Positions 21,285 through 50,700 of a stretch of DNA of 60,489 nt are shown piece after piece. Origin of the DNA: Candidatus Woesearchaeota archaeon (GTDB taxonomy: Archaea; Nanobdellota; Nanobdellia; Woesearchaeales; DATGWN01); contig JBLKOU010000002.1 in the NCBI GenBank assembly GCA_047603125.1, positions 1 through 60,489 on the forward strand, in the 5' to 3' direction. The notes under the pieces were generated by a model that made no database searches, was not told the DNA's origin, and was given only the letters and a program-made list of their open reading frames with translations. Both the position numbers and the translations under genes were made by a program. How positions within the stretch are numbered: position 1 is the first letter of the stretch; each line of letters starts with the position of its first letter.

Positions 21285-21285
21285 A

Positions 21286-36738: not shown

Positions 36739-38358
36739 ATGGCTCTTATGACTGCGCGTGGACAAGTAACTGTTTTTTTAATCATCGGCCTAATTGTTTT
36801 TATGGCATTTGCTTTGTTATTGACATATCAACCGCGAACATCGGTAGAAGATTTATCTCCTGCGGATGCAACGCCTGCAAGAATTGCAGTTGAGACATAT
36901 CTGCGCCAGTGTTTACAGGAAAGTGCGGACACTGCCACGAAAACTATTTTGTCTCAAGGAGGGTTGTGGTTTGAAAGTCAGGGTGGTTCGGATAATGATG
37001 AAAATTTTGATTTTGACAAACCTGTTGTGCTTAGACATGATGTCTTGCCACGTCATAGTCCTCCATATTATCCTCATAATTTAAGTGGTCGATATAATGC
37101 GACGCTAGAAGAGCTTTATATTCATTTTCATGAACAAGGATTATTATTATTTCCATTATTTGGAAGAATTGACCCGAGGGCTGAGTCGGGGAATTTTTAT
37201 TTGCCCCGTCTTTGTGATCTTGAAGGGCCGAATTGGCCTGGCCATACTGATCATGGACGAACGTGTGAGTCAGATGTCTATGATACAATTGGTTCTGTTT
37301 CTTCAATACAAAATAAAATTCAATCATATACGACTGGAATCTTTCAAAACTGTATTGAGAGTTTGAGTGGGCGGGATGCGCCCGTTGCACAATCTATTGC
37401 ACAAGAGAGTTTTATTCATGTTATTTATTCAAACGATGGGGTTGAATATGTGGCAAAGGTTCCAACACAGGTAAATATTTCAGATGTTACGCTTCGATTA
37501 AATGATATTTCCTATACGCAACCTCTGCGAATTAAACCGATGTATAATCTCATTTTTTTTGGTATGCGTGAGGAGACTATTAATGCGAGTTTTATGATTG
37601 AGAATGCAAGCCATTGGGATTCATTGATATATTGTAATTATAATGGAACAAATTCTCTATGTTTATTGCCTGGTTTACAAATAACGCGGGAGAATAAGAC
37701 TTATGAGGACAGACATTATGACTTAATAACAGTTGTAGACACACAAGTTCCGCGCAGAGTGTTTTCTGTTTATTTTGAAAATCGTCCGCCAATAATTGAG
37801 TATCCGTCATATTCGCCATTTGTTGTGCAAGCGGACGAGACATTTAATATAACGCCTCGTATTATTGATCCGGACGGCGATACTGTTTGGACTGTTTTTT
37901 CTCGATATAATGGGTCTGAATGGATAAACGACACTTTATTTCGTTTTAATGAATCCCAATTGTATGAAGAAGGGGATTATTCTTTAGGTTGCCCTGGGAA
38001 TGTGTGTGCGAATTACACTGTTGATGTTTGTGAATTTGCGCAGCTGGGGACGCATAATTTTCGCTTATATGCTGCTGATCGTGGGGGGCCGTATGACTTT
38101 TTTCCGATTGATATTACGGTAAAGCCGGCCGATAACCTGGATAGTTGCTCAGGCTCTGTGTGGGATGCTTGCGCAACAGGTATGAACTCTACTTGTGTTG
38201 AGGTGTTGGAGGGGTATGGTGTTGATTTTAATCCTGCTGATGGAATATTTGAAGGTTGTGATTTAGAAGAGTGTTTAGGTAATTCATGTACTTTGTGGGG
38301 AGGTACAGATGTTCCGTTTCCGCAGCACGGCCAAGCGCTTTTTAACAAATTTTGTTAG
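36739..38358 (+). CDS. Protein with class III (prepilin-like) signal peptide and a Cys-rich C-terminus (539 aa)
   Basis: Starts 5 nt after the previous stop. The N-terminus MALMTARGQVTVFLIIGLIVFMAFALLL is a basic region, then G/Q, then a ~20-residue hydrophobic helix. Confidence 0.8.
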   Translation: MALMTARGQVTVFLIIGLIVFMAFALLLTYQPRTSVEDLSPADATPARIAVETYLRQCLQESADTATKTILSQGGLWFESQGGSDNDENFDFDKPVVLRHDVLPRHSPPYYPHNLSGRYNATLEELYIHFHEQGLLLFPLFGRIDPRAESGNFYLPRLCDLEGPNWPGHTDHGRTCESDVYDTIGSVSSIQNKIQSYTTGIFQNCIESLSGRDAPVAQSIAQESFIHVIYSNDGVEYVAKVPTQVNISDVTLRLNDISYTQPLRIKPMYNLIFFGMREETINASFMIENASHWDSLIYCNYNGTNSLCLLPGLQITRENKTYEDRHYDLITVVDTQVPRRVFSVYFENRPPIIEYPSYSPFVVQADETFNITPRIIDPDGDTVWTVFSRYNGSEWINDTLFRFNESQLYEEGDYSLGCPGNVCANYTVDVCEFAQLGTHNFRLYAADRGGPYDFFPIDITVKPADNLDSCSGSVWDACATGMNSTCVEVLEGYGVDFNPADGIFEGCDLEECLGNSCTLWGGTDVPFPQHGQALFNKFC

Positions 38359-38447: not shown

Positions 38448-41400
38448 GTGCGTATATTCCTAACAATTTTATTTTTATTCACCATTCTTCTAGTTTCCCC
38501 TGTTTATGCTGATGATGTAAAGTTTGGTTGTTATGTCCATAATTGGGATACGTTTATAGAGACAAACAGCTGTAGTGGTACAACGACATTATTGCAGGAT
38601 TTAGATGCTAGTGAGAAATATGATGAATTAGTTTCTGAATATGAGGCAGATTCCGATGAGTTAAGCGCAAGATTTGCGGCGAATAAATATTGTACTTCTA
38701 CTCAGCGAGAGGATTTTGGAGATGTTGCCGGCGATTTAGCTGAGTTTTGTTCGGGTGCTATTTGTGATTTGGGCGACGGAAGAACAGTGCCAAGACTTTT
38801 TGGTAATTGTAGCGACACGAAGGCTTTTTTTGAAGCGAATCCTGACTCGCTTCCTTCAGACCCAGATCCGGACCCCGACCCCGACCCGGACCCTGATCCA
38901 GACCCTGACCCCGACCCCGACCCGGACCCTGATCCAGACCCTGACCCCGATCCAGATCCAACAGACCCGCAAGTTTGTCAAAATGTCTGTAACTTACAAA
39001 CACATGTGTGCAGTAGCTCAGTTTCTGGCGAATTCAATAATGTTGGGCCCGGCTCTGTTTGTTGCCAACCAGACTACTGTGTAGAAAAGCCTGACGTTGA
39101 TTTGGAATCACGCACAATTTCAGGAAGTGTTGAGCGCCCAGGAAATTTAGAAGGGAGATTATATCAAGTTCGAGCACTACAAACAGATGGAGAATTTGGA
39201 GCGTCGGTCTCTCAAACAGGATCCTCATATGAACTTGAGAATTTATTACCCGGTGTTTATAATATCACTATTACTAATTTTGACAGCGATCCCACGTATA
39301 GAATTGTTGATGTGACTGAAGAAAACAAAACTGGCATTAATTTTAATTTAACAACTGATAATATACCAACCGTTATTGTTACAGATGAAGAAGGGGGGGC
39401 TTTAGGGGGCACATCTGTTGTTGTGATAGGTGGCAGCGTGTCACAAATAACACCTTCCAGTGGAACTGTATATTTGGTTGGGGCAAATTTAGGTAGTTTA
39501 GAATTGTTTATTGTCAAAGACGGTTATATACCGCTGCGACAAACACATGATTTTGGTGAAGAAAATCCATTTACTGCACGATTGCAAACAAAAGATTGTT
39601 TACAGGACGAACCTCCTGCACCGACATATCAACGAACGCCAGGTTCTACGCGATTGAAATTTACGGCATTTACTCCTTGTAATTTAGCTGCAAGCTCTTT
39701 TGTACTTGAACGTTGTTTAGGAGTAAATTGTGATTCGTTTGTAGAAGTGAATCAAACAGCAACACCATTATTAACGGATTCGAGTGCTCAATGGAATCGA
39801 ACATATAATTATCGAATAAAAATTGTTTATGAACAAGATTCAAGTATTGCGTATTCTCCGTCTGTGCAGATATATACGGGGGACACCGTTTGTGAGGGGA
39901 TGTATCAAAATCAGCCCTTTTGCGGGGAAGAAGTGGATGGTAATGTGGGGTATCGATGTTCTAACAACCAGGTTGTAAATTATTATGATACTGATGATTT
40001 TACTTGTGATGAGCCGGGTTTTTGTGTTGAGCGTTTGAATCAAGAAGGTAAATTTTATTTAACTTGTCAACAAGATAATGTTTGTTTAATTCAAGATTTT
40101 GTTCAAAGTCCCTTTGAGCTTTTTACCAGCAAGGACACTTGTTTAGAGAATAGCGATTATCTTTGTTATTTTGATAGAGGAGCAAGTGTTGCTCCGGTAT
40201 GCCAGACGTGTTTTTCACAAATGAAGTGTTCGGATTATCTCACAAGAGACGCATGTCGGGATGATGCCTGTCATGTAGGAAATGTTCAGGATTCTGCATG
40301 TCAATGGCAGGAGTCAATTACTCAAGTCGGTATGGGAACATGTGTGCCTGCACAAGATTTTGCACAGAATAATCCAACTGCTGCGTGTTTACAATGTACT
40401 GGAAGTAGTTGTGATCAAAAAATGTGTGAAGGTTTAGGAGTTTGTACGTATGTGGGGGGTGAGAGTAAACCATGTGTTGCAACATCTGATTTTTACTGTT
40501 CTGCTGTGCAAGATCGCAACATTTGTGAGGATCATGAGTCGTGTTTATGGAACCAGAATAAATGTGTTAAGAATTTTAATGGTCAACCTTGTGAAGCCGA
40601 ATTAGGACACTTGTCACAACATTGTGATGATACAATACCACCAGTAACAACTATTCATATGGATTCGCAGCTAGGCGTTTTTGATTTATATATTATTAAT
40701 TTTAGTGTAATCGATCAAGGTATTGGCGGGTATCCTAATAATCCTCGGGATGATTATACTGAGTTTGTCGAAAAAACAAAACTTTGTTTTATTGATTGTT
40801 TTAATACTGACTTATCTTTTAATTCTGTAAACTGGAAAAAAGCAGTAATTACCACGAATCAAATTTATTTTGAGTTAAATGATTCTTTAGTAAACAGTCT
40901 CAATACTGAAGGTGGCGAATCAATTGTTTATTATTATTCAGTTGATCGTGTGTTAAATAGTGAGGCACATAGTCGACATGATGTAAATAGATTTTATTTT
41001 CGTATTGATAGAACTGCTCCTCAGCTAGAGGTTTTGACAGAAGTTGTCATGGATTACACTGGTAGTCAACAACCCTCTGTTCTCTTTGATATTAAAACAA
41101 CGCATGATACGCGAGCAGATGAGGCGAAAAGAACATCTTGTTCTGTTTCTTTTTCTGACCAAACACAATCATCTAAAAACACATATTTGAGTCGTCATAC
41201 ATTTTTCTTTCCTGAACAAAATGATGGTGTTCGTGATGCAACAATTACTTGTGTTGATGAATTTGGCAATACGAATACGAAAACAGAATCGGTAGAAATT
41301 TGGTCCGATAGTGATATTGAGTGGATTTCTCCTGCGCGTGTTGTTTCAGAGCAAGACCATGATTTAATAATTGAGACTGCAACGCCTGCTGAGTGTAAAT

Positions 41401-44400
41401 ATTCGGCAGATCCTCTTGCTTTACATGATCAGTATAGTAATTTTAAACCTGATTCAGCTTTTACTCGTCATAGTGCACAAGTAACATCTCCAGAAAATAC
41501 GCAAACAACATACTCGGTTATTTGTTCATTTTCTCAAGGAAACCGTGAAAAAATTGTGCAAAGCACTGTTCTTGTAGATACAATCCCGCCACAAACAGTT
41601 TTTATTAATGAGCAAACAGGAAAACCATTTGATTTTACGAAAGTTTATACAGAGCCAGTTACTGTACGGGTCGGTTGTGTTGATCAACCGCAAGGGGGCT
41701 TTGGTTGTGTTCATCGTTCGGGTTTGCAGGATTTAACTCTTGCAAGTTCACAAGATACTTCGCCCATTGATTTATCTAAAGCACAGGTGCGTGAAGAGGA
41801 TGAGTTTGCAGAGTTTACTGTGAATTCACTGGCAAAAATTTGTGCACAGACACGGGAAAAAACAAGAGAACCTGAATTTGGTGAGAATCAAGACTGCCAT
41901 GCAGTGCAATTTCAAGAATTACAACCCCATGTTCGTTTTGTAGATCCTCCCGAGTTTGCTTCTTCTAACTCTCCTCAAATAGTTGCACAAGTTTATTTCA
42001 TGCGTGATCCATTGTCTTTTTCTGTGAGTGGTGATCAAAATTATGTTAATAGTTCCTTTTTATTTAATACAGGAAAACTTTCTGGACGCTTTTCTTATAC
42101 GGATGAAGAAGATCGGGTAGAACTATATGTTGAATTTGGTGATCAAAGAGTCGTGTTTAATTTAGCTCAAAATAGGGTTGAATTTGCTGGCAGTACTGTA
42201 TCGTTTACATTTGAAGAAGGAGAGAATTATTTCTTTGACATTTACTCTCAAAGTTCCAATCAAGCAACGGTACGCTTAAATAATCAAACTCTTTTTAACA
42301 ACGTGCAAATTGGTTCGAGCGAAGGGATTGTGCGCTATGGGTATGAAAATACAATTCCTGGAATACAACCTCGCATAACAGTGAGCCCATTGTCTGTAGA
42401 AGTGTTTGATAGTTTGATCAGTGAGTATGACGTTACATTTACAGCTGGAGAGAGAATTACTCGAACAGTTCGACTTCCAGCAAATGAACCGAAGAATTTA
42501 CAAAATGTATTATCCTCATTTCGAATTGCAACACTTGATGAGTTTTATGAAGGAGGTCAAGTTCAATTACAAATATATCCTGTGGGCCATTCATCTAATG
42601 GGGATTCCCATACTGTAGAATTTCGTGTAGGGGATTCTATTAATCTTGACGTTTCTTTTGTTTCGGATGAAGGGACTAATACAATCTTTTTTGATGAGTC
42701 ATTTGGTGTAGAATATGAGTTTGAACACTTTTATCCTGTTGAAAATGTGACAATTGAATTACCCGATTCTTTTAAACACAGTACTGTTTTTGAACCACCT
42801 ACACGTTCAGCAAATGATTCGTTTACTGTTGCTATAAATCCTGATAATCGTATTCTTATTGGTGAACATATTGTTTATGCGTTTGTTGAAGATGCAGAGG
42901 GTCTTTTTTTAGAGCGAAATTTCACATTATCCATTTTGAGTCGATTCAGTGAATTTAATGATTTGTTGCGAATTTATACAAATACAAGTAGGCCAACTAT
43001 AGAATTTGGTGTTCCAAGTGAGTATAGTACAACGGAATGTCGTATAAGATATCCTTCGGAAGGTCAAACTCGAGAGCAAAAATTCGAGTCACAAGGAGAT
43101 ATAAGACGAGTCACACTTGAACATTCTTTGACAAAAAAACCAAATGCGGAAGTTGAAATTTCTGCAACAATTATGTGTTCTGCTGTCGCAGATAATGCTG
43201 CTCAAGAAATTGATGCAGTTATTATTGTTGATATGCGACCACCAAGGGTTGGTTTTGTCATTGACTCGTTTGATCAATCTATTGCTTATATGTCGGAGTA
43301 TTCCGTAGAATCAAAAACTTACAGGGTATTAAATTCATCTGGCGTGTTTGCAAAAGGTTTTCGGATAATGGCGGATGAACCTGTTCGATGTCGTTTTGAG
43401 CGAGGAGCATGGCAAAGCAATTGGACGGGATTACAAAAAAATCATCTTTTTACAGATGCGGCAGTACTGTTTTCTTCGCCATTGGTTCCTTCACAAATTC
43501 AGGCAACATGTCAAGATCAAGCAAATAATACGGTGACGCGCAGTCTGGATCTTACAGAATCGACAGAGCCAGTTCATCAAGTAACTGTTCCAGAAATTAT
43601 TTTTGCAAATCAACAATTTGAGGTCGAATTACAGACAACAAGAGATTATCAAGAATGTCGCGTTTCTCCAAACAGTGGTTGGTCGCATGCACTTCCTTTG
43701 ACATCCAATGATCGTGATTCGTTAACAGGACTTATAAGTCACACGAGGGATGTTCGTTTTAGTAATCAGCCAAGTACACTTTATATATTGTGCGATCAAC
43801 AAGTAGTTTATACAAAAACGGGATTATTGTATGAGCCTTTATCGGAAAATGAATTCCAGGCTGTACTGGTAACACAACCGTTTATTACACAGGATTCTCA
43901 AAAAACAATTGCCATTGAAGTGAATCAAACCCAACATCCATTCAAGGTTTATGTATATAATGATGGTTTGCAGTTAGTGAGAGAGTTTGAACCACAGACC
44001 GAATCAATTTTCCTTCCTGTTTCCTTGCATGGTGGAACAAATGAACTTCAAGTCTTGGTTGAATATGGACCCAAAACTATTGAACTTAAACGTTTATACG
44101 GATATAGGTCTGTTTCAGGTTCACGTGGTACGTATGCATATTTGCGAGGAGCGGTAGGAACAATTTCTCAATATCCTGGTTTATATTATGATGTGCAAAA
44201 TCAGAGTGTTGAGTTTGAGGATTTTGTTTCTGGCAATTACTACACATTGGTGGAAGAATATGAAGGAGAAACTGTCTATCATGCATTTCGCTATGAATCG
44301 TTGACACCATTTGTTTATTATAATAGCACTCGTTCTCAATTTATGTGGGATGGTCCATTTATGTATGATGTTCGCGATGGAAGAAATGAAGATGTAGTTA

Positions 44401-47400
44401 TGGGTCAACGGCCAATGAGTGCATTTGATTCTCAGGTGGGGCGCGATACAATTAGTCACGAGGGGAGTTTTTCAAGTAATGCTTATGTTTTTGCGACAGT
44501 TTTTAGTGAATTTTTAACAGAGGGACGAGGTTCATTTGCCCAATTTGTTGAATCCGTTTCAACACCAGTTACAATGGACGTACATCCTACGACAATTGTA
44601 ACTCCAAGACCGACATTGGAAGTTTATTGGAATCGACCTCTTCAGATTATTGAAGCAACCTTTAGTGGTGGAGCTGTTAATGAGCAGTTTTCAAGTATGA
44701 CGGACTTTTTATTGAATCAAAGCTTTCAAATAGAATCATCACTTGAAGAAGGCCAGCGCTATACACTAGATATACTTACCCAGACGCCAGGTGGTGCTCA
44801 GCAGGAATTTTCAAAAGACTTTACTGTTTCATTTGAACCATTGAAGATAACACTTGTCTCTCCCAAATTTACCGATCGGAGAAACTATGATTTTGTCATT
44901 CGAACAGATAGGAATGCGCAGTGTGGTTTTGCACAATCTGACACTGATTTTGAGAGTATGCAACTATTAGTATCGACAGACGACAATACTCATGTAGCAA
45001 CTGTGCAATTTGAATCTGACGAGTCAGAAAAGACATTATTTGTCAATTGTAAAGATCTCACAACAAATGTGATTTTAAATCAACCTGAGCAATTTGTTAT
45101 AACTTACAATGACGATAGTCCGACTTTTGATTTTGAAGTAGTGCAATCACAATTTATTCCTGAAACAAACGCGTTTGCAATCATAACGCCAACAGGAAAA
45201 GCGCTTGCAACAGTGAATGCAACACAACCTGTAACATGTACTTTTGCGCGAGAAGAAAGTACCCCAAGCACATTTGGTTCTGATCAATTTAACACATCGC
45301 ACGAACATATGATTTCCATTTCAAATACTGAGCCGCAAAATTATACTATTCGATGTGAAAATCCTGCAGGTAGGTATACTCAGCAAACATATCCATTTTA
45401 TAAAATTTCGCCTGCGCAATCTGCGCATATTTTTATTGAAGAGCCTTCTTCAACAAGACCATTTGTTTTTGAGCGAAGTACGTCTCTTGTAGTGCGAACA
45501 ACTCCTAATAAGTTTACTCAATGTTCATATCGTGCAAACCAGGGTTCAGAAATTTCTCTTGTGAGACAAGATGATGCGACATACTATATTCAAGAATCTT
45601 TGCAACTTCAGCTTGGATGGAATGTCCTAAATGTGACTTGCACAGGTGCAGATGCACATCAAGAATACTCGACACGTTCGGTTTTTGTTGATCAAATTCC
45701 TCCGACAATATCTGCTATTGATGTTGAGTCAAGCATTACTGTGAACCCTCATCAATTACGCGATCATCCATTCTATTTACGTGCAAATGTTTCGGGTCGG
45801 GATGAGCAATCGGGATTATCTGAGATACAATATATGATCAGAACAGATACAACTACTCAAATTGCAAGTGGGAATGTTTTACTCCAAGGAGTTTCACAAA
45901 TAGAGAATAGAACACTTTCAAAAAATATAAATATTGATCCTTTGATTAGTGAAGATAGCTTCTATTGGGATATTTCGTTGATAAATAGAGCTGGATTAGT
46001 TTCGCAACTTGAATCAACTCCCGTGCAGATACATGTTGACCCCGATGTCGTTTATGCACAATTGTCTTTAGTACATTCTGACACAAATGTTACCCGAGAT
46101 AGATATGTGCAAATTCAAGCATTATTTACAACAAACCCTGATAAGTTTATTCATGCAAAAATAATAAATCCGAACGGAGTAGAGCTATCTACTGAATTAC
46201 TCGAGCGTCAAAATACACGTCATGTCTTTATTGCAAATAAAAGCGAGGATGGATTATTGGTTGAAGGAGTTCACAGATTTGAACTACGCTATGAAGATGG
46301 TGATGGTGAACACTATATACAAGAATATTATTTTGAATATCAACTAGGCAATGTTGAAATATTTTTAGAAAGTCCAAAGTATGGTGGAACAACAGCACAA
46401 AACACTCAATATCGCTTTATAACGACTGATTTGGCGACATGTGAGTACGACTGGGGAACAGAAATAGGTTCGGGGTCACAAAGTATATCTTCAAATTATC
46501 AGTTAAATCATAATGTTCCAATTAGTTTCCGGCCACAAGACGATGGTCAAGTCTTTTCATTGACACTGGAATGTACAAATAAAAATGAACAACCGACAAA
46601 AGAAACATTTACAATTACTTATGATACACAAAAACCGCAAATGAATGTGACATTCTCTCCGTTGATTAATAATCGTTGGATATTTAACCAAAGAACTGTT
46701 TCACTTTCAGTTAATACTGATAAACATACTTTGTGTCGATATGGCCGAACAAGTGACTTTGAACAGATGAATCCACTTTCAAACAATCAATTTTCAAGAG
46801 AACATACGACGCAAATATCTTCTTTACCTGATGATTCTATATGGTGGGTTGTGTGTAAAGCCAGAACTGAATTATCAACAAGTCTTGAACAAAGAATCTC
46901 TGTAGATTTGAATCCAACACAGTCTTTGATGATTCATTCTCCTGAGAGATATATTCGCCCAGGTGAGCATACAATTAACGCAACAACACACATACCTGTT
47001 GAGCCACAAAGTTGTGTTGCGAGTATAACAAAGAATAATCAGACACAAATGGTTGACATTAGCGTGACTGAAACTATCATTGAAGGGTTGCATACATTTT
47101 CGGATGAAGGCTCATACAAAATAGAATTGGATTGCAGCGGTACTGGAACTGCGCCTGGTGAGGGGGCATCCGCAAGTCGCTCAATTATTGTAGATGATAC
47201 TGCGCCAGAATTCATAAACATTTCTACACCACAAACTGCAAGATTAGATAGCCAAGATCGTGTTCCTATCAACGCGAGTGTAGTATTTAAAGATAATTTA
47301 TCAGGAATTTTATATTATGAATATATCGTAGGTTCAGCACCATTCCCTCAAGCAGGGTATAATTCATATATGAATGGTACGAATAGTTCAAGTGCATATT

Positions 47401-48185
47401 TTCAGACATTAGTCTCTGATGTTAAAAGAGATGACCTTATTTATGTAACCGTGCGAGCGGTAAACAAGGTTGATTTAAAAAGTGAGTATCAATCTTCAAA
47501 TTCGATTAGAGTCGTTGGTGGTTCAACAACATCCAATGGTTCAGATCCAGACCCTGATCCGGATCCTGATCCGGACCCGAAACCGCCAATTGTGCCTCCA
47601 AAAAGTGAGAATGGTGATGATGAACCGGATCCTCTTCCAGATCCAGATCCGCTACCGCAAGATGATACGCCTGATCCCGTAGAATCATCTTCAGGTCTTG
47701 GTATGTGGTTTTATATAATACTCCTCCTCCTTTTGATTATTGCTGTTGTCGGAGGATACTTTGGCTATACGGCGTATGAAGATAAGTTACAAAAACAAAA
47801 ACGCCCAGTCTCACGGTCTGTCGGCATGCCACCACCACCGGGCTCTACGCAAAGTCAATTTGGTTCACCAACAATGCCTGCTGCGCCACCCCAACAGATG
47901 AGTGTGAAGCAAAAGCTCAAACAACGCTTGCAAAAACGCCTTTCAGCAACAACGGGAGCTCAGGCGCCTGCGTCAGTTCAAAAAGAATCGACGCCAAGTC
48001 AGCCTGCACAGCCGTCAGCACCAATGAGTGAGTTACAAAAAATTGCACAATCTGCGCCAAAACCAACACAACAAAAAGCAGACCTTGAAGGGCTTAAATC
48101 GATTACAAATGGTGAGTCTGAAAAACCCCAAGAAGAAGATTCGCTTGAAAAGCTCAAGAAACTTTCGGAGAAAAAAGATGAATAA
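38448..48185 (+). CDS. Giant membrane-anchored surface protein (3245 aa)
   Basis: GTG start with an upstream gagggg. Sec signal MRIFLTILFLFTILLVSPVYA, a (DP)17 linker, a Cys-rich region, and at least 10 repeats of ~100 aa each with a conserved Cys pair. A second DP-rich linker is followed by a single C-terminal TM (WFYIILLLLLIIAVVGGYFGY) and a P/Q/K-rich tail. Confidence 0.9.
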   Translation: MRIFLTILFLFTILLVSPVYADDVKFGCYVHNWDTFIETNSCSGTTTLLQDLDASEKYDELVSEYEADSDELSARFAANKYCTSTQREDFGDVAGDLAEFCSGAICDLGDGRTVPRLFGNCSDTKAFFEANPDSLPSDPDPDPDPDPDPDPDPDPDPDPDPDPDPDPDPDPTDPQVCQNVCNLQTHVCSSSVSGEFNNVGPGSVCCQPDYCVEKPDVDLESRTISGSVERPGNLEGRLYQVRALQTDGEFGASVSQTGSSYELENLLPGVYNITITNFDSDPTYRIVDVTEENKTGINFNLTTDNIPTVIVTDEEGGALGGTSVVVIGGSVSQITPSSGTVYLVGANLGSLELFIVKDGYIPLRQTHDFGEENPFTARLQTKDCLQDEPPAPTYQRTPGSTRLKFTAFTPCNLAASSFVLERCLGVNCDSFVEVNQTATPLLTDSSAQWNRTYNYRIKIVYEQDSSIAYSPSVQIYTGDTVCEGMYQNQPFCGEEVDGNVGYRCSNNQVVNYYDTDDFTCDEPGFCVERLNQEGKFYLTCQQDNVCLIQDFVQSPFELFTSKDTCLENSDYLCYFDRGASVAPVCQTCFSQMKCSDYLTRDACRDDACHVGNVQDSACQWQESITQVGMGTCVPAQDFAQNNPTAACLQCTGSSCDQKMCEGLGVCTYVGGESKPCVATSDFYCSAVQDRNICEDHESCLWNQNKCVKNFNGQPCEAELGHLSQHCDDTIPPVTTIHMDSQLGVFDLYIINFSVIDQGIGGYPNNPRDDYTEFVEKTKLCFIDCFNTDLSFNSVNWKKAVITTNQIYFELNDSLVNSLNTEGGESIVYYYSVDRVLNSEAHSRHDVNRFYFRIDRTAPQLEVLTEVVMDYTGSQQPSVLFDIKTTHDTRADEAKRTSCSVSFSDQTQSSKNTYLSRHTFFFPEQNDGVRDATITCVDEFGNTNTKTESVEIWSDSDIEWISPARVVSEQDHDLIIETATPAECKYSADPLALHDQYSNFKPDSAFTRHSAQVTSPENTQTTYSVICSFSQGNREKIVQSTVLVDTIPPQTVFINEQTGKPFDFTKVYTEPVTVRVGCVDQPQGGFGCVHRSGLQDLTLASSQDTSPIDLSKAQVREEDEFAEFTVNSLAKICAQTREKTREPEFGENQDCHAVQFQELQPHVRFVDPPEFASSNSPQIVAQVYFMRDPLSFSVSGDQNYVNSSFLFNTGKLSGRFSYTDEEDRVELYVEFGDQRVVFNLAQNRVEFAGSTVSFTFEEGENYFFDIYSQSSNQATVRLNNQTLFNNVQIGSSEGIVRYGYENTIPGIQPRITVSPLSVEVFDSLISEYDVTFTAGERITRTVRLPANEPKNLQNVLSSFRIATLDEFYEGGQVQLQIYPVGHSSNGDSHTVEFRVGDSINLDVSFVSDEGTNTIFFDESFGVEYEFEHFYPVENVTIELPDSFKHSTVFEPPTRSANDSFTVAINPDNRILIGEHIVYAFVEDAEGLFLERNFTLSILSRFSEFNDLLRIYTNTSRPTIEFGVPSEYSTTECRIRYPSEGQTREQKFESQGDIRRVTLEHSLTKKPNAEVEISATIMCSAVADNAAQEIDAVIIVDMRPPRVGFVIDSFDQSIAYMSEYSVESKTYRVLNSSGVFAKGFRIMADEPVRCRFERGAWQSNWTGLQKNHLFTDAAVLFSSPLVPSQIQATCQDQANNTVTRSLDLTESTEPVHQVTVPEIIFANQQFEVELQTTRDYQECRVSPNSGWSHALPLTSNDRDSLTGLISHTRDVRFSNQPSTLYILCDQQVVYTKTGLLYEPLSENEFQAVLVTQPFITQDSQKTIAIEVNQTQHPFKVYVYNDGLQLVREFEPQTESIFLPVSLHGGTNELQVLVEYGPKTIELKRLYGYRSVSGSRGTYAYLRGAVGTISQYPGLYYDVQNQSVEFEDFVSGNYYTLVEEYEGETVYHAFRYESLTPFVYYNSTRSQFMWDGPFMYDVRDGRNEDVVMGQRPMSAFDSQVGRDTISHEGSFSSNAYVFATVFSEFLTEGRGSFAQFVESVSTPVTMDVHPTTIVTPRPTLEVYWNRPLQIIEATFSGGAVNEQFSSMTDFLLNQSFQIESSLEEGQRYTLDILTQTPGGAQQEFSKDFTVSFEPLKITLVSPKFTDRRNYDFVIRTDRNAQCGFAQSDTDFESMQLLVSTDDNTHVATVQFESDESEKTLFVNCKDLTTNVILNQPEQFVITYNDDSPTFDFEVVQSQFIPETNAFAIITPTGKALATVNATQPVTCTFAREESTPSTFGSDQFNTSHEHMISISNTEPQNYTIRCENPAGRYTQQTYPFYKISPAQSAHIFIEEPSSTRPFVFERSTSLVVRTTPNKFTQCSYRANQGSEISLVRQDDATYYIQESLQLQLGWNVLNVTCTGADAHQEYSTRSVFVDQIPPTISAIDVESSITVNPHQLRDHPFYLRANVSGRDEQSGLSEIQYMIRTDTTTQIASGNVLLQGVSQIENRTLSKNINIDPLISEDSFYWDISLINRAGLVSQLESTPVQIHVDPDVVYAQLSLVHSDTNVTRDRYVQIQALFTTNPDKFIHAKIINPNGVELSTELLERQNTRHVFIANKSEDGLLVEGVHRFELRYEDGDGEHYIQEYYFEYQLGNVEIFLESPKYGGTTAQNTQYRFITTDLATCEYDWGTEIGSGSQSISSNYQLNHNVPISFRPQDDGQVFSLTLECTNKNEQPTKETFTITYDTQKPQMNVTFSPLINNRWIFNQRTVSLSVNTDKHTLCRYGRTSDFEQMNPLSNNQFSREHTTQISSLPDDSIWWVVCKARTELSTSLEQRISVDLNPTQSLMIHSPERYIRPGEHTINATTHIPVEPQSCVASITKNNQTQMVDISVTETIIEGLHTFSDEGSYKIELDCSGTGTAPGEGASASRSIIVDDTAPEFINISTPQTARLDSQDRVPINASVVFKDNLSGILYYEYIVGSAPFPQAGYNSYMNGTNSSSAYFQTLVSDVKRDDLIYVTVRAVNKVDLKSEYQSSNSIRVVGGSTTSNGSDPDPDPDPDPDPKPPIVPPKSENGDDEPDPLPDPDPLPQDDTPDPVESSSGLGMWFYIILLLLLIIAVVGGYFGYTAYEDKLQKQKRPVSRSVGMPPPPGSTQSQFGSPTMPAAPPQQMSVKQKLKQRLQKRLSATTGAQAPASVQKESTPSQPAQPSAPMSELQKIAQSAPKPTQQKADLEGLKSITNGESEKPQEEDSLEKLKKLSEKKDE
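38859..38960 (+). repeat. (GAC CCN)n tract encoding (Asp-Pro)17, containing a perfect 36-bp tandem duplication
   Basis: 38871-38906 is identical to 38907-38942 (gaccccgaccccgacccggaccctgatccagaccct). Confidence 0.9.
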
Positions 48186-48699
48186 AAAAGGGTTTGACGC
48201 AAATCAAATGTTTATTTATATTGTTGCTATTGTAGTTGTTGGAGGCGTGTTAATTTTTGGAGGCCGTGCAGTACTTTTATTTTTACAAAGCAGCGAGAAT
48301 ATTCAAACAACACAGTATTTACGAAATTTAGAATCGGCAGCCACTGGTGTTGCAAATGAACATGGTACTGTTCGATTTCATGACGTCAGACTAGTGGCTC
48401 GTGCAGATAAAATTTGTATAATTGATAAAACGAATAGTACTATGCAGGATGGTAATTGCGATCAAGATTACGGCGCAGAATTATGCTACCTCTGGGAATT
48501 AATTGTTGAAAAACGCCAAGAACCAGCCAATGTCTTTTTATTACAAGGATCGGCCATTGTTCAATCATATCACATTGATAATTTGTATCCTGAAAGTGAA
48601 AATAATATTGTGTGTGCGCAAAGTTCGGGACAGCGCTTTGAGATGACAAATCGTCGAGGGGCCGCATATATTAACGTGACGCTGCCTAGTTCATCATGA
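48178..48699 (+). CDS. Prepilin-like (class III signal peptide) protein 1
   Basis: The ATG at 48178 overlaps the giant gene stop by 8 nt. N-terminus MNKKGFDANQMFIYIVAIVVVGGVLIFGG. Confidence 0.7.
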   Translation: MNKKGFDANQMFIYIVAIVVVGGVLIFGGRAVLLFLQSSENIQTTQYLRNLESAATGVANEHGTVRFHDVRLVARADKICIIDKTNSTMQDGNCDQDYGAELCYLWELIVEKRQEPANVFLLQGSAIVQSYHIDNLYPESENNIVCAQSSGQRFEMTNRRGAAYINVTLPSSS

Positions 48700-49718
48700 A
48701 TAAACAGGGTTTTATTGCAATTTCATTTCATTGGTTATTTATCGCCTTAATTGGTGGTTTTTTACTGTTCTTTTTCTTTAACCTTGTCTCTACTGGTGTT
48801 GATGTTGCACAGAATCAACAAAGCATTCAATTAGTAACAAATTTGGAAACATTATTTAGTGCATTTGCACAAAACGAACATACGGATGGGCCGATTTCTA
48901 TAGGGGAGAGAACACAATTGACGCTGAGTTGTGATTTTATCGGTGAAGGTGTTGCATCCAACTTTCGTGCAAATCGCGGTATTGATTTATCACTGAATAA
49001 TCTGGTTATTTATTCACCTGTTGAGCTTGAAGGTCCTACGATTTATGCAAAAACCATTCCGGCAAATATGCCATTTTATGTTGGTTCAGTGTTGTTATTA
49101 GTTGATACGCGAACAAAGTTTTATTTTGAGGGTTTTTCTGAGGATGAGTTTGCGTATTTAGTAGATGCACTGCCGCGTGGTGCTTTGGTTGAAAATTGGA
49201 CTGATTCAATTAATGATCGAGGTATGAATACGATTGTTGTGGTGAGCAAAAATGGTTTTTCAGGTGACCTCCCTTCTCGAAGAGGATTGACGGTGCGAAA
49301 TATTACCTTGGTTCCTGGAAGTTCAATTGACCAGGAAGGAACAATTCGCTATGGGGATGCGGATTCCCATAAATATATTGGAGAAGCAATGCTTTTAGGT
49401 GCGCTGGTTTCGGATGAAAATACATTTTTATGTAATACATTCAAACTCATGCAAACTTTTTCTCGTGTGTCGCAAGTGATGTCGCTTCGAGCGGGTGAAG
49501 TTCAACTTGAGCAATATACAAGTTCAGAGGCATGTCGAACAACGCAAAGTCAAATTGGTTTAGCTATTAGTCGCGTACGCTCTGAAATGAGCCCACTGAC
49601 GGTTTCTAAATATAGGGATAATTATGCGACTATAATGGGTGAGCTTCAAAATGAATTTCCCAGCATTAGAGCATTGAACAGAGAACTTGTCGAACGATCA
49701 TGCCCGGTGGTGTACTAA
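48696..49718 (+). CDS. Prepilin-like (class III signal peptide) protein 2 (340 aa)
   Basis: ATGA overlap with the previous gene. N-terminus MNKQGFIAISFHWLFIALIGGFLLFFFF. Confidence 0.7.
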   Translation: MNKQGFIAISFHWLFIALIGGFLLFFFFNLVSTGVDVAQNQQSIQLVTNLETLFSAFAQNEHTDGPISIGERTQLTLSCDFIGEGVASNFRANRGIDLSLNNLVIYSPVELEGPTIYAKTIPANMPFYVGSVLLLVDTRTKFYFEGFSEDEFAYLVDALPRGALVENWTDSINDRGMNTIVVVSKNGFSGDLPSRRGLTVRNITLVPGSSIDQEGTIRYGDADSHKYIGEAMLLGALVSDENTFLCNTFKLMQTFSRVSQVMSLRAGEVQLEQYTSSEACRTTQSQIGLAISRVRSEMSPLTVSKYRDNYATIMGELQNEFPSIRALNRELVERSCPVVY

Positions 49719-50206
49719 TGAAAAAAGCACAAATTCGCATGTTTGAAAGTATTGCAGTGTTGATTTTATTCTTTTTTCTTGTTGCAATCGGGCTTGGCTT
49801 TTATGGGAATATTCAACAAGCGCAGATGGAGCAGTCCCGTGATCAATTATTGAATTTACGAACAATAAAAATTGCAAACATGGTTGCGGGTATGCCTGAG
49901 CTTTCTTGCACTCAAGAAGGTGTCAAGACAAGTGCGTGTGTTGATTTTATAAAAGCAGAGCAAATGGCAAGTACTCCTTTTCAAGCTACACTTTTAGATT
50001 ACATCGAGTTTGATAATGCGAAAATAGAATTGTATGAGTTTATAGAAGATGATTTTGAACCCGTTGTAACCATTTTAGACCGGGCACCTACAGAATTTCG
50101 AGCTGCGATACCTTCGCGCGTTCCTGTAACAATTTATCGACCGGTTCCTGGAAGCTCACATGGGACATATGACTTTGGATATTTGGAGGTGACAACATAC
50201 CGATGA
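49718..50206 (+). CDS. Prepilin-like (class III signal peptide) protein 3
   Basis: TAATG overlap. N-terminus MKKAQIRMFESIAVLILFFFLVAIGLGF. The ORF-track start at 49700 is an alternative. Confidence 0.7.
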   Translation: MKKAQIRMFESIAVLILFFFLVAIGLGFYGNIQQAQMEQSRDQLLNLRTIKIANMVAGMPELSCTQEGVKTSACVDFIKAEQMASTPFQATLLDYIEFDNAKIELYEFIEDDFEPVVTILDRAPTEFRAAIPSRVPVTIYRPVPGSSHGTYDFGYLEVTTYR

Positions 50207-50700
50207 AGGCACAATCAGAATTATTGGGTTTTGTTATTGTGGTTTTGCTTATGTCAGTTGGCATGCTTTTTGTTTTAGGGTTTTATGTGTTTAGTGAGCC
50301 GTCCCAAGATAGAGAAATTTTTTCAGACAGACAAATTTCAACGATGCTCAACGCCGCGATATTACAAACATCAACAACATGTTACTCACTACCTTTGCGC
50401 GATTTAGTAGTAGACAGCCAACGACCGACTCAGTCTATAAATTGTCCAAATTCAGACGGGGTTTCCACTCCTAGTCTAGAATATGCTAAAACAAAAATTG
50501 AACAATTACTTAATGCAACTTTGGATGTCTGGGATGTTGATTATGAATATAGAGCGTATAGGGTACAAGGGGACGAAGAGCAAGGAAATCCTATAGAACT
50601 GAACAGAGGCGCATGTCGAGGAAAAGAACAAGTACCAAATACATTACTTTTACCCATACCTCCTTCTGGAACTGTGTATTCTGTATTGACAGTGTGTTAA
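50203..50700 (+). CDS. Prepilin-like (class III signal peptide) protein 4
   Basis: ATGA overlap. N-terminus MKAQSELLGFVIVVLLMSVGMLFVLGF. Confidence 0.7.
   Translation: MKAQSELLGFVIVVLLMSVGMLFVLGFYVFSEPSQDREIFSDRQISTMLNAAILQTSTTCYSLPLRDLVVDSQRPTQSINCPNSDGVSTPSLEYAKTKIEQLLNATLDVWDVDYEYRAYRVQGDEEQGNPIELNRGACRGKEQVPNTLLLPIPPSGTVYSVLTVC

What the first reader, a model, noticed from the sequence alone, without database searches (positions are those of the whole stretch)
38448..48185. 3245-aa giant surface protein: (DP)n stalks, Cys-rich module, at least 10 disulfide-type Ig-like repeats, C-terminal TM anchor and cytoplasmic P/Q tail
Architecture read directly from the translation:
- Sec signal.
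- ~135-aa Cys-containing head.
- (DP)17 linker.
- A Cys-dense region, roughly residues 470-720, with more than 40 Cys.
- A long series of ~100-aa modules. Each carries an early Cys in a x-C-(K/R/x)-(Y/F) context: ECKYSADP, ECRIRYP, RCRFERG, ECRVSPN, QCGFAQSD, TCTFAREE, QCSYRAN, TCEYDWG, LCRYGRTS, SCVASIT. A second Cys follows ~55-60 residues later: VICSF, IMCSA, ATCQD, FVNCKD, IRCEN, VTCTG, LECTN, VVCKA.
- A second DP/P-rich stalk, one TM helix and a ~150-aa Pro/Gln/Lys-rich tail.
- N-x-S/T sequons are abundant.

A type I membrane-anchored protein of this size is a plausible adhesin or cell-cell contact protein. The cytoplasmic tail implies coupling to intracellular partners.
Basis: seen in the sequence. 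Interest (0 to 1): 0.75.

Follow-up and report, generated by a model that had tools for sequence, protein, structure and literature searches.

The report
Giant anchored surface protein, archaeal pilus operon
This is a real 3245-residue membrane-anchored surface protein of a tiny, probably host-dependent Woesearchaeota archaeon; its uncharacterised family always sits inside an operon of pilus-like genes, making it a good candidate for cell attachment, though giant repeat-built surface proteins are already familiar in such organisms.

Summary
The ORF is real: 38448..48185 (+), 3245 aa. The architecture was read largely correctly: signal peptide, Cys-containing head, (DP)17 linker, Cys-rich module, 11 two-Cys beta-sandwich modules, P/D stalk, one TM helix and a 138-aa basic P/Q tail.

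Three corrections:
- The Cys-rich module holds 28 Cys, not more than 40.
- Cys-Cys spacing in the modules is 37-46 residues, not 55-60.
- Sequons are only 1.3-fold enriched.

The window is from a Woesearchaeota (DPANN) archaeon. The protein is not an orphan. Collinear relatives of 2905-3647 aa, about 23% identical with nearly all Cys invariant, occur in Nanoarchaeota/Woesearchaeota MAGs and are annotated only as hypothetical.

The modules are remote relatives of bacterial Ig-like (Big_13/BIg) domains. The Cys-rich module has no detectable structural neighbour.

The gene lies in a conserved seven-gene block: a large secreted Cys-rich protein, a large pilin-like protein, the giant, then four small pilin-like proteins. 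The block sits near a type IV pilus ATPase and platform gene.

Best reading: a disulfide-stiffened, membrane-anchored fibril of a pilus-associated attachment apparatus. Adhesion itself is inferred, not shown. An S-layer-like structural role is the main rival.

The parts
38448..38510 (+). Start codon and Sec-type signal peptide (aa 1-21, cleavage predicted after VYA)
   Evidence: Hydropathy above 2 over aa 1-22. An SD-like AGAGGGG lies 6 nt upstream of the GTG.
38511..38858 (+). N-terminal head, aa 22-137, 6 Cys; distal tip of the ectodomain
   Evidence: C28, C82, C106 and C121 are invariant in relatives. No Pfam match.
38859..38960 (+). (DP)17 acidic proline-rich spacer, aa 138-171
   Evidence: The DNA repeat is imperfect (79-80% matches at period 6), so the repeat is kept at the protein level. 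No comparable XP runs were found in the relatives checked.
38961..39113 (+). Small 6-Cys segment, aa 172-222
   Evidence: Cys at 177, 181, 188, 205, 206 and 211. C177, C188, C206 and C211 are invariant.
39114..39596 (+). Two CarboxypepD_reg-like (transthyretin-like) beta-sandwich domains, aa 223-383
   Evidence: PF13620 at 30.2 bits, just below the 32.3-bit cut-off. The family profile matches NOMO2 (9c7v) at E 1.3e-9 over profile positions 216-374.
39597..39878 (+). Domain with 4 conserved Cys, aa 384-477; FN3-like sequence pattern (inference)
   Evidence: C384 and C411 are invariant (C423 and C428 are not), as are W449, Y453 and Y455. No Pfam hit.
39879..40655 (+). Cys-rich module, aa 478-736, 28 Cys; contains an internal duplication of the motif C.DY.sE.aC..n.C...C.W...G.C.D
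   Evidence: It occurs once per protein in at least 25 of 157 relatives. About 24 Cys are invariant or nearly so in the 17-sequence alignment A3. The AF2 model has pLDDT 73 and pTM 0.46. There is no structural neighbour in PDB or BFVD (best E 0.6 and 0.3).
40656..41048 (+). Domain aa 737-867 (C780, C784)
   Evidence: Both Cys are invariant. Similarity to the module profile is weak (hhalign probability 26%).
41049..41606 (+). Two-Cys beta-sandwich modules 1-2 (aa 868-1053)
   Evidence: The Cys pairs 898/935 and 983/1026 are invariant in relatives.
41607..41927 (+). 4-Cys domain, aa 1054-1160, with the conserved motif PxxGFGC
   Evidence: C1077, C1087, C1132 and C1150 are invariant, as is G1084-F1085-G1086.
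41928..42968 (+). Cys-free stretch 1, aa 1161-1507; fold not determined
   Evidence: No Pfam or PDB match and no significant similarity to the module profile.
42969..43871 (+). Two-Cys modules 3-5 (aa 1508-1808)
   Evidence: The Cys pairs 1531/1577, 1648/1688 and 1737/1782 are invariant.
43872..44849 (+). Cys-free stretch 2, aa 1809-2134; its last ~105 aa resemble aa 2530-2640
   Evidence: hhalign probability 32%. Only 46% of these residues align to relatives.
44850..45719 (+). Two-Cys modules 6-8 (aa 2135-2424); probably part of an extra ~500-aa unit specific to this lineage
   Evidence: Only 38% of these residues align to relatives.
45720..46361 (+). Cys-free stretch 3, aa 2425-2638; its first ~105 aa resemble the membrane-proximal domain
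   Evidence: hhalign of aa 2425-2530 against aa 2926-3030 gives probability 53%, E 1.4e-4.
46362..47222 (+). Two-Cys modules 9-11 (aa 2639-2925)
   Evidence: The Cys pairs 2665/2709, 2763/2803 and 2856/2896 are invariant. The AF2 model was made for module 10.
47223..47531 (+). Membrane-proximal domain, aa 2926-3028 (motif DNLSGILYYEY...YVTVRAVN)
   Evidence: The second most conserved region, 33% identity. It contains the best-conserved peptide stretches between the window and its relatives.
47532..47693 (+). D/P-rich stalk including (DP)6, aa 3029-3082
47694..47768 (+). Transmembrane helix, aa 3083-3107, ending in a conserved GGY(F/Y)xY motif
   Evidence: Hydropathy up to 2.77. This is the most conserved segment, 44.8% identity.
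47769..48185 (+). Cytoplasmic tail, aa 3108-3245, plus the stop codon. Elements: GMPPPPG, a basic helix KQKLKQRLQKRL, and C-terminal DSLEKLKKL
   Evidence: K3154, L3157, K3158, L3161, K3163 and L3165 are invariant. Relatives have tails of 127-277 aa with 20-31% K+R.
32714..36733 (+). Operon partner: 1339-aa Sec-signal, Cys-rich (30 Cys) secreted protein without a TM anchor
   Evidence: Homologues occupy the same position in L042, L043 and L045.
36739..38358 (+). Operon partner: 539-aa pilin-like protein with a class III signal (MALMTARGQ|VTVFLIIGLIVF), 16 Cys
   Evidence: Homologues lie directly upstream of the giant gene in L040, L042, L043 and L045.
48178..50700 (+). Four small pilin-like genes: 48178-48699 (173 aa), 48696-49718 (340 aa), 49718-50206 (162 aa) and 50203-50700 (165 aa). 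The first overlaps the giant's stop by 8 nt.
   Evidence: Each N-terminus has a basic leader, then [KR][GA][QF], then ~20 hydrophobic residues. Homologues in the same order follow the giant gene in L045 and L042, and four pilin-like genes of matching size and N-terminus follow it in L002, where only the third matched by tblastn. No Pfam match.
51356..51925 (-). 189-aa cytosolic coiled-coil protein carrying GMPPPPG; conserved beside the pilus ATPase in Woesearchaeota
   Evidence: It is adjacent to the pilin block in L045 and L042.
54490..60222 (.). 228-aa coiled-coil gene (54490-55176, -), type IV pilus/archaellum-type ATPase (55787-58045, +) and TadC/FlaJ-like platform gene (58000-60222, +)
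   Evidence: Pfam T2SSE, a weak T2SSF match, and sub-threshold NCBIfam FlaI/TadA-type ATPase matches. This trio is conserved in most of 37 Woesearchaeota/Nanoarchaeota loci.

Best explanation
The gene encodes a genuine, conserved, type I membrane-anchored giant surface protein of a Woesearchaeota (DPANN) archaeon.

Proposed build and action:
- After Sec export, the ectodomain of about 3060 residues forms a long chain of roughly 25-30 small beta-sandwich domains. This count and shape are inferred.
- Many of the domains are pinned by an internal Cys pair.
- The chain carries a variable head and a conserved 28-Cys module far from the membrane, on acidic Asp-Pro spacers.
- A conserved TM helix and a basic, Pro-rich cytoplasmic tail hold the protein in the membrane.
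- It is made together with, and probably translationally coupled to, a set of pilin-like proteins and a second large secreted Cys-rich protein. All belong to a type IV pilus-like surface apparatus.

The most likely job is physical attachment of this small, probably host-dependent cell to another cell or to a surface.

Shown here: the gene, its topology signals, the domain families, family conservation, operon conservation and fast divergence.

Inferred: the rod shape, the disulfides, adhesion and any coupling through the tail.
For: Gene reality.

Organism:
- Archaeal replication and translation genes fill the window.
- The pilus ATPase is 46-70% identical to those of Woesearchaeota/Nanoarchaeota MAGs.

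Family:
- Collinear relatives are P0039, P0035, P0053, P0115 and P0043 (E 1e-56 to 1e-27), at about 23% identity.
- Nearly all Cys, the TM and the tail helix are invariant.
- Lengths of 2905-3647 aa in independent assemblies argue against a chimera.

Modules:
- 2078 proteins match the module profile, and 546 of 563 matched domains keep both Cys.
- There are remote links to Big_13 and to the BIg domains of the adhesin SiiE.
- The AF2 model is a beta-sandwich with the two Cys in strands 2 and 4 of 5. Foldseek top matches are FN3/Ig/CBM sandwiches, including the grappling-hook protein GhpA.

Operon:
- The same seven-gene order recurs in L045 and L042, and in part in L043, L041, L002 and L040.
- Class III signal-like N-termini are seen across the loci.
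- The giant's stop overlaps the next start by 8 nt.
- One relative, P0054, has its tail fused to a homologue of the first pilin-like protein.

Fast evolution in the nearest MAG:
- ATPase 70% identity, platform 59%, deoxyhypusine synthase 57%.
- Pilin-like proteins 26-45%.
- The giant 23%.

Precedent:
- Archaeal pilus loci often encode a large protein with a C-terminal TM, a second large secreted protein and Cys-rich components (PMC4858521).
- Surface and pilus genes diversify fastest in Nanoarchaeota (PMC6142677).
Against: - No recognised adhesive or ligand-binding domain was found anywhere in the protein.
- Adhesion is therefore argued from architecture and context only.
- About 40% of the ectodomain (the three Cys-free stretches, the head and aa 737-867) has no assigned fold.
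- The pilin-like nature of the neighbours rests on N-terminal motifs and context, not on any family model.
- No prepilin peptidase gene lies in the window.
- The host-dependent lifestyle of this organism is assumed from its lineage.
- No expression data are available.
Confidence: 0.55

Rival explanations
1. It is an S-layer-like envelope protein. In this reading it is a structural, membrane-anchored stalk or canopy component of the cell wall, as tetrabrachion is in Staphylothermus. It would be co-encoded with the pilus genes because the pilus must pass through the layer, and host or surface binding would not be its primary role.
For: - It has a signal peptide, a Pro-rich stalk and a C-terminal TM anchor.
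- Makarova et al. classify just such large proteins in archaeal pilus loci as S-layer-like (PMC4858521).
- The membrane-proximal domain and TM are the best conserved parts.
- Sequons are mildly enriched.
Against: - It diverges very fast relative to housekeeping genes (23% against 57-70% identity in the nearest MAG).
- Its length varies between relatives through gain or loss of about 500-aa units.
- It shares no similarity with any known S-layer family.
- A chain of about 27 domains would be far longer than typical lattice proteins (inference).
- A conserved cytoplasmic tail of 130-280 aa is not a usual S-layer feature (established knowledge).
Confidence: 0.25
2. It is a pilus-borne tip adhesin, the functional analogue of bacterial PilY1. 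In this reading the four small pilin-like proteins act as a minor-pilin priming complex and present it at the pilus tip.
For: - It lies inside a block of one large and four small pilin-like genes. This resembles the bacterial fimU-pilVWXY1E arrangement (established knowledge).
- It is translationally coupled to the first small pilin-like gene, and a fusion of the two exists in P0054.
Against: - It has a conserved type I TM anchor and a long cytoplasmic tail. Its orientation is opposite to that of pilins, which would hold it in the membrane.
- It has no vWA, beta-propeller or DUF2341 domain.
- The anchorless 1339-aa secreted neighbour is a better candidate for a tip protein.
Confidence: 0.07
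3. It is an artefact: an assembly chimera, or a decayed or frameshifted gene that only looks like one long ORF.
For: - The gene contains low-complexity DP repeats that can mislead assemblers.
- The window's exact protein was not found in the protein collections.
- One relative (L001) is split into ORFs of 3469 and 967 aa.
Against: - The chance of an open frame this long is about 3e-100, and codon-position bias is strong throughout.
- Homology is collinear from signal peptide to tail with relatives of similar length in at least six independent assemblies.
- The DP-coding DNA is imperfectly repeated.
Confidence: 0.02

Closest known systems
Large 'S-layer-like' and adhesin proteins of archaeal type IV pilus loci (Makarova, Koonin and Albers 2016, PMC4858521), for example the Pyrobaculum/Thermoproteus system
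   Same: One large protein with a signal peptide and a C-terminal TM, plus a second large secreted protein and several small pilin-like proteins. All carry multiple conserved Cys and are encoded with a pilus ATPase and TadC-like platform.
   Different: The lineage is different (DPANN Woesearchaeota) and no sequence relationship was shown. This protein is far larger. It has a long conserved cytoplasmic tail and a distinctive 28-Cys module. The function of the Thermoproteales proteins is itself only predicted.
Bacterial giant fibrillar adhesins built of Ig-like (BIg/Big_13) repeats, such as Salmonella SiiE
   Same: A very long chain of small beta-sandwich repeats that projects a distal region from the cell surface. 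The family's module profile matches SiiE BIg domains (2yn3, E 1.3e-3), and 7 of 38 family modules hit Big_13.
   Different: SiiE is secreted by a type I system and is held non-covalently. It has 53 near-uniform, Ca-binding repeats without Cys pairs. Here the repeats are heterogeneous and carry Cys pairs, the anchor is a TM helix, and the window's own modules fail every Pfam threshold.
Giant membrane or surface proteins of ultrasmall episymbionts (the 1392-4163-aa proteins of Vampirococcus lugosii, PMC8080830; SPEARE proteins of Nanohaloarchaeota)
   Same: Reduced-genome, host-dependent cells that spend a large share of their coding capacity on very long surface proteins with interaction domains, alongside type IV pili.
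   Different: No homology was shown. The Pfam scans here found no protease or nuclease domain, which by recall characterise SPEARE proteins, and none of the PKD, WD40 or integrin domains listed for Vampirococcus. The operon linkage to pilin-like genes seen here is not described in the passages of that paper read here.
PilY1-type pilus tip adhesins encoded in minor-pilin operons
   Same: A large Sec-exported protein encoded among several minor-pilin-like genes (established knowledge of fimU-pilVWXY1E).
   Different: PilY1 has no membrane anchor and is defined by vWA and beta-propeller domains. Neither was found here, and this protein keeps a conserved TM and tail.
Tetrabrachion (Staphylothermus marinus S-layer stalk protein)
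   Same: A long archaeal surface protein anchored by a C-terminal TM segment that projects tens of nanometres from the membrane (established knowledge).
   Different: Tetrabrachion is a coiled-coil stalk, not a chain of beta-sandwich domains. No sequence similarity was detected.

Membership tests
Pfam Big_13 (PF19077) bacterial Ig-like domain | A match to the family HMM at or above the gathering score (27 bits) | tested here: not met
   None of the window's 11 modules matches Big_13 even at E up to 10. Among 38 modules of the wider family, 7 match (best E 6e-10). The relationship is therefore remote, not membership.
Pfam CarboxypepD_reg (PF13620) | A match at or above the gathering score (32.3 bits) | tested here: inconclusive
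   The score is 30.2 bits for aa 223-302, just below the cut-off. The family profile matches the NOMO2 repeats at E 1.3e-9. Relatives are annotated as carrying this domain.
Immunoglobulin-like beta-sandwich with an intradomain disulfide | A two-sheet beta-sandwich fold | tested here: inconclusive
   The AF2 model of module 10 has five strands, pLDDT 72 and pTM 0.64. Foldseek matches to FN3/Ig/CBM48 sandwiches have probability up to 0.99, but E is only 0.03-0.3 and TM-score about 0.5.
Immunoglobulin-like beta-sandwich with an intradomain disulfide | Two Cys positioned to bridge the sheets | not testable with these tools
   Both Cys lie in predicted strands (C26 in E24-29, C66 in E61-68) and are kept in 546 of 563 domains.
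Fibrillar adhesin (stalk repeats + adhesive domain + surface anchor) | A stalk of repeated small domains | tested here: met
   There are 11 two-Cys modules plus two CarboxypepD_reg-like domains.
Fibrillar adhesin (stalk repeats + adhesive domain + surface anchor) | A recognised adhesive or ligand-binding domain | tested here: not met
   No such domain was found in the whole protein or in nine separately scanned segments.
Fibrillar adhesin (stalk repeats + adhesive domain + surface anchor) | A cell-surface anchor | tested here: met
   A single C-terminal TM helix at aa 3083-3107 with a positive-inside tail.
Archaeal pilus-locus 'S-layer-like' large protein (Makarova et al. 2016) | A large protein with a signal peptide and a C-terminal TM, encoded among pilin genes near a pilus ATPase and TadC-like gene, with conserved Cys | tested here: met
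   The description in PMC4858521 was read.
Archaeal pilus-locus 'S-layer-like' large protein (Makarova et al. 2016) | Forms a surface lattice | not testable with these tools
   This needs microscopy.
PilY1-type tip adhesin | A vWA and/or C-terminal beta-propeller (or archaeal DUF2341) domain, and no membrane anchor | tested here: not met
   No such Pfam match was found. A conserved TM anchor is present.
PGF-CTERM / archaeosortase-processed surface glycoprotein | A C-terminal PGF motif, then a TM, then a very short basic tail | tested here: not met
   The sequence before and within the TM reads SSSGLGMWFYIILLLLLIIAVVGGYFGY, with no PGF. A 138-aa tail follows.
Type IV pilin-like proteins (the neighbouring genes) | A class III signal: short basic leader, [KR][GA] cleavage motif, then a hydrophobic helix of about 20 residues | tested here: met
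   The pattern is present in most of the 25 pilin-like genes examined across seven loci. Three start with a variant leader or lack the pattern.
Type IV pilin-like proteins (the neighbouring genes) | A match to a curated pilin family model | tested here: not met
   No Pfam or NCBIfam hit was found. The only trace is DUF7289 at E 0.036.

The most novel reading that the evidence does not exclude
The seven-gene block may encode a previously undescribed attachment organelle specific to Woesearchaeota/Nanoarchaeota. In this reading the giant protein is a true transmembrane coupler rather than a passive fibril. Its conserved TM helix (GGYxxY) and Pro-rich, basic-helix tail would dock onto the pilus platform, or onto the two cytosolic coiled-coil proteins conserved beside the pilus ATPase; one of these shares the GMPPPPG motif. 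Binding outside the cell would then be mechanically or regulatorily linked to the pilus motor inside. This would be a prokaryotic analogue of adhesion receptors tied to a cytoplasmic machine, carrying a new disulfide-rich fold as its binding head.
Probability: 0.12. Interest if true: 0.75.

Novelty: new member of a known kind. Interest (0 to 1): 0.45.

Why it matters
DPANN archaea such as Woesearchaeota are abundant, almost entirely uncultured, and thought to depend on host cells. The molecules that mediate contact are largely unknown.

This work delimits several things:
- a conserved, fast-evolving gene block consisting of a giant anchored protein, a second large secreted protein and five pilin-like proteins, linked to a pilus motor. 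It is a concrete candidate attachment apparatus;
- a widespread two-Cys beta-sandwich module, found in 2078 protein clusters;
- a 28-Cys module with no detectable structural neighbour.

These give defined targets for structure prediction, metaproteomics, antibody labelling in enrichments, and host-range comparisons.

The general idea that ultrasmall symbionts carry giant repeat-built surface proteins is not new.

Tried and rejected
- Word-indexed homology searches with the full protein and with aa 176-3021 found nothing. A third search with the family alignment returned only 7 hits. Low-complexity words probably swamped the candidate lists. The exhaustive profile search was what revealed the family.
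- BLASTP self-comparison found no internal repeats.
- A PDB sequence search with the 11-module profile found nothing.
- Pattern-based locus searches failed. The 4-sequence alignment A5 returned one partial locus.
- Foldseek of the Cys-rich model found no credible match in PDB or in viral structures. A PSI, EGF or follistatin-like identity was considered, but no result supports it.
- Profile-profile comparison of the Cys-free stretches with the module gave only weak probabilities of 35% or less. Their folds remain unassigned.
- A tail motif D.(F/L)..L(K/R) matches in about two-thirds of the relatives' tails, but with a loose pattern. It resembled MIT-interacting motifs, but the spacing does not fit, so the idea was dropped.
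- The shared GMPPPPG in the tail and the 189-aa coiled-coil protein is 7/8 identical. Polyproline is present in only 8 of 24 orthologues of that protein. It is kept only as a weak lead.
- No tRNA or Rfam element lies in the window.
- No prepilin peptidase gene lies in the window.


Full report
**1. The observation**

The ORF at 38448..48185 (+) is continuous and encodes 3245 residues.
- It starts at a GTG that lies 6 nt downstream of AGAGGGG.
- At this base composition, the chance of 3245 codons without a stop is about 3e-100.
- GC content by codon position is 0.51/0.41/0.24. The two other frames carry 160 and 346 stops.

- a hydrophobic signal (aa 1-21, VYA|DD);
- a 6-Cys head (aa 22-137);
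- (DP)17 at aa 138-171;
- a Cys-dense region;
- paired-Cys modules;
- a D/P-rich stalk with (DP)6 (aa 3029-3082);
- one strong TM segment (aa 3083-3107), acidic outside and basic inside;
- a 138-aa tail; measured on its last 135 residues it is 13% P, 13% Q and 16% K+R.

Four points need correction:
- The Cys-dense region (aa 482-726) holds 28 Cys, not more than 40.
- The paired Cys are 37-46 residues apart, not 55-60.
- The modules number 11. They lie in four clusters (2+3+3+3) separated by Cys-free stretches of 214-347 residues; a 107-aa four-Cys domain also lies between the first two clusters.
- N-x-S/T sequons number 38 against 28.9 +/- 4.7 in shuffles, p = 0.03.

The (DP)17 coding DNA is an imperfect repeat (79-80% matches at period 6). 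The repeat is therefore maintained at the protein level.

**2. Are the modules real repeats?**

Within the protein the signal is weak.
- BLASTP self-comparison finds nothing.
- Pairwise identities are 15-28%.
- In leave-one-out profile tests, 6 of the 11 held-out modules beat all 2000 shuffled decoys.

The external evidence is decisive.
- A profile of the 11 modules, run against 1.84 billion representative proteins, matched 2078 proteins at E <= 1e-3 and 394 at E <= 1e-10. Many of these are 3000-7700 aa long.
- Among 563 matched domains in the best 157 proteins, 546 keep both Cys.
- The best-scoring proteins carry Big_13, Y_Y_Y, DUF4625 and fn3 Pfam domains.
- Of 38 representative modules, 7 match Big_13 (best E 6e-10). 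The profile matches the BIg domains of the Salmonella giant adhesin SiiE (2yn3) at E 1.3e-3.
- An AF2 model of module 10, made with the 11 paralogues as its alignment, is a five-strand beta-sandwich (pLDDT 72, pTM 0.64). The two Cys lie in strands.
- Its Foldseek neighbours are FN3, Ig and CBM48 sandwiches, plus segments of the Aureispira grappling-hook protein. E is only 0.03-0.3 and TM-score about 0.5.

None of the window's own modules reaches any Pfam threshold. The modules are therefore a distinct two-Cys branch of the bacterial and archaeal Ig-like domains. They are not members of a curated family.

**3. The rest of the ectodomain**

- aa 223-383 holds two CarboxypepD_reg-like sandwiches. 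PF13620 scores 30.2 bits against a cut-off of 32.3. The family profile matches NOMO2 at E 1.3e-9.
- aa 478-736 is a 28-Cys module with an internal duplication of the motif C.DY.sE.aC..n.C...C.W...G.C.D. It occurs exactly once, at a similar position, in at least 25 of the 157 proteins examined.
- Its AF2 model, built from a 17-sequence alignment, has pLDDT 73 and pTM 0.46. It has no credible neighbour in PDB (best E 0.6) or among viral models (best E 0.3). Either the fold is new or the model is not good enough to tell.
- The Cys-free stretches have no assignable fold.
- aa 2425-2530 resembles the membrane-proximal domain aa 2926-3030 (probability 53%, E 1.4e-4). aa 2030-2134 resembles aa 2530-2640 (probability 32%).
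- These two similarities suggest a super-repeat of about 500 aa: a pre-domain, three two-Cys modules, then a post-domain. Relatives align poorly to the copy at aa 2135-2424 (38% aligned), so this lineage probably gained an extra unit.

**4. Organism and family**

The window carries archaeal PolD (with an intein), Cdc6, PAN, RFC, the CCA-adding enzyme and deoxyhypusine synthase. Its GC content is about 36%. Its pilus-type ATPase is 46-70% identical to those of 37 loci, nearly all from Woesearchaeota/Nanoarchaeota MAGs.

Comparing the giant with the 150 profile hits revealed collinear relatives running from signal peptide to tail: P0039 (3141 aa, E 1.5e-56), P0035, P0053, P0115 and P0043.
- In the six-sequence alignment, identity to the window is 22-24%.
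- Almost every Cys is invariant, including eight module pairs.
- Also invariant are a Trp at the start of the TM and the residues of a basic tail helix, K..LK..L.K.L.
- By region, the TM (44.8%), the membrane-proximal domain (33%) and the Cys-rich module (28.6%) are the most conserved.
- Seventeen of 26 relatives show a strong C-terminal TM followed by a 127-277-aa tail with 20-31% K+R.

Where public names exist, they read 'hypothetical protein [Nanobdellota archaeon]', 'carboxypeptidase regulatory-like domain-containing protein [Nanoarchaeota]' or 'hypothetical protein [Candidatus Woesearchaeota archaeon]'. The family is uncharacterised.

**5. Genomic context, the most informative result**

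Upstream of the giant, on the same strand and closely spaced:
- a 1339-aa Sec-signal protein with 30 Cys and no anchor;
- a 539-aa protein with a prepilin-type N-terminus (ARGQ|VTVFLIIGLIVF).

Downstream are four genes of 173, 340, 162 and 165 aa.
- Each begins with a short basic leader, a [KR][GA][QF] motif and about 20 hydrophobic residues.
- Each has an even number of Cys.
- The first starts 8 nt before the giant's stop, in the sequence ATGAATAA.

Further downstream lie two coiled-coil genes, a pilus/archaellum-type ATPase and a TadC/FlaJ-like platform gene.

The same gene order recurs in other assemblies:

| Locus | Genes before the giant (aa) | Giant (aa) | Genes after the giant (aa) |
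|---|---|---|---|
| L045 | 1343, 493 | 3309 | 172, 304, 181, 167; then both coiled-coil genes, the platform gene and the ATPase |
| L042 | 1037, 596 | 3141 | 174, 385, 163, 168 |
| L043 | 1609, 484, 501 | 2905 | 166 |
| L041 | (none related) | 3020 | 171 |
| L002 | (contig start) | 3647 | 170, 331, 160, 189, plus three more pilin-like genes |
| L040 | 761 (pilin-like) | partial | (contig end) |

tblastn confirmed homology of the flanking genes.

One relative, P0054, has its cytoplasmic tail running directly into a homologue of the first small pilin-like protein (E 3e-6). The topology of this fusion is consistent.

In the nearest MAG, identities to the window are as follows:
- ATPase 70%, platform 59%, deoxyhypusine synthase 57%;
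- coiled-coil proteins 41-42%;
- pilin-like proteins 26-45%;
- the giant 23%.

The surface genes therefore diverge much faster than their neighbours.

**6. Interpretation**

Shown:
- a conserved, exported, single-pass anchored giant protein built largely of small beta-sandwich domains with conserved Cys pairs;
- a conserved, unique Cys-rich module;
- a conserved TM and tail;
- obligate genomic association with pilin-like genes and a second large secreted protein.

Inferred:
- The Cys pairs form disulfides.
- The ectodomain is an extended fibril on the order of 100 nm (about 27 domains of about 4 nm each, plus Pro-rich spacers).
- The fibril serves attachment.

The arrangement matches what Makarova, Koonin and Albers described for other archaeal pilus loci. 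They found one large protein with a C-terminal TM ('S-layer-like'), one large signal-peptide protein (a possible adhesin), small minor pilins, and conserved cysteines throughout (PMC4858521).

Rapid divergence of surface and pilus genes has been reported for Nanoarchaeota (PMC6142677). Giant surface proteins alongside pili have been reported for other ultrasmall symbionts (PMC8080830).

I favour an attachment fibril that works alongside the pilus (0.55) over the alternatives:
- A purely structural S-layer-like role (0.25). Against it are the divergence rate, the modular length variation and the long conserved tail.
- A pilus-tip adhesin (0.07). Against it are the conserved anchor and tail. The anchorless 1339-aa neighbour fits that role better.
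- An artefact (0.02). It is excluded for practical purposes by coding statistics and by intact relatives in independent assemblies.

**7. Novelty**

The sequence family, the two-Cys module as a defined unit, the 28-Cys module and the seven-gene block were not described in the papers found by five full-text searches or in the three I read. The searches were limited.

The kind of thing is nevertheless familiar: a giant repeat-built surface protein of a DPANN archaeon, and a large TM-anchored Cys-rich protein in an archaeal pilus locus. I therefore class it as a new member of a known kind, of moderate interest.

The more novel possibility is that the TM and tail couple the fibril to the pilus machinery or to the conserved coiled-coil proteins. 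It rests on three observations:
- the high conservation of the TM;
- the conserved tail helix;
- a shared GMPPPPG motif, which is present in only a third of the orthologues of the coiled-coil protein.

This remains a low-probability lead.

Noticed in passing
window 51356-51925 (-) and 54490-55176 (-); loci L003-L038: Two cytosolic coiled-coil proteins (189 and 228 aa, no family match) are conserved next to, and divergent from, the pilus ATPase/platform pair in most of the 37 Woesearchaeota/Nanoarchaeota loci. In L045 and L042 the 189-aa type also abuts the pilin block. They may be uncharacterised cytoplasmic parts of this pilus system.
   Followed up: partly
window 47823-47843 (giant tail, aa 3126-3132) and the 189-aa protein at 51356-51925 (-): Both carry GMPPPPG (7/8 identical, single-comparison E 0.002). 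Polyproline is present in 8 of 24 orthologues of the coiled-coil protein. This could be a shared short motif or a compositional coincidence.
   Followed up: partly
protein P0054 (2329 aa, from the representative library): In this giant-family protein the cytoplasmic tail continues without a stop into a homologue of the first small pilin-like protein. It is either a natural fusion or a frameshift in that assembly. The topology is consistent, and a prepilin-type site (KKKGQ) sits at the junction.
   Followed up: partly
locus L001, 9731-23046: The relative P0151 (3469 aa) lacks a C-terminal TM. The next ORF (967 aa) matches aa 2627-3022 of the window protein. The gene appears split in that contig, either by a frameshift or as a true two-gene form.
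   Followed up: no
window 55787-58045 and 58000-60222: The pilus ATPase (752 aa) and the TadC-like platform (740 aa) are each unusually long. The ATPase core matches only residues ~280-640, which leaves an unassigned N-terminal extension of ~280 aa that is conserved across the related loci.
   Followed up: no
window 24657-25577, 26683-27594, 27649-28605: Three similar-sized genes (303-318 aa), apparently paralogous, have lipoprotein-like N-termini (LVSAC, LLYSGC, LLVAGC) and no family match. Just upstream at 19581-23646 lie two Cys-rich proteins of 567 and 786 aa with hydrophobic N-terminal segments, also unassigned.
   Followed up: no
window 1356-5129 (-): The DNA polymerase D large subunit (DP2) carries an intein (Intein_splicing match at aa 850-1004).
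   Followed up: no
window 52213-53145 (+): A RhuM-family 'virulence protein' gene (E 4.5e-100) lies between the 189-aa coiled-coil gene and the deoxyhypusine synthase gene. In the closest related locus (L042), deoxyhypusine synthase directly follows the pilin block, so this gene may be a recent insertion.
   Followed up: no
window 38448-48185 compared with the protein collections: Neither the word-indexed search nor the exhaustive representative search returned the window's own protein or any close relative. The best relatives are about 23% identical, although the neighbouring ATPase has 70%-identical relatives. This lineage's version of the giant is so far unique in the collections searched.
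   Followed up: yes
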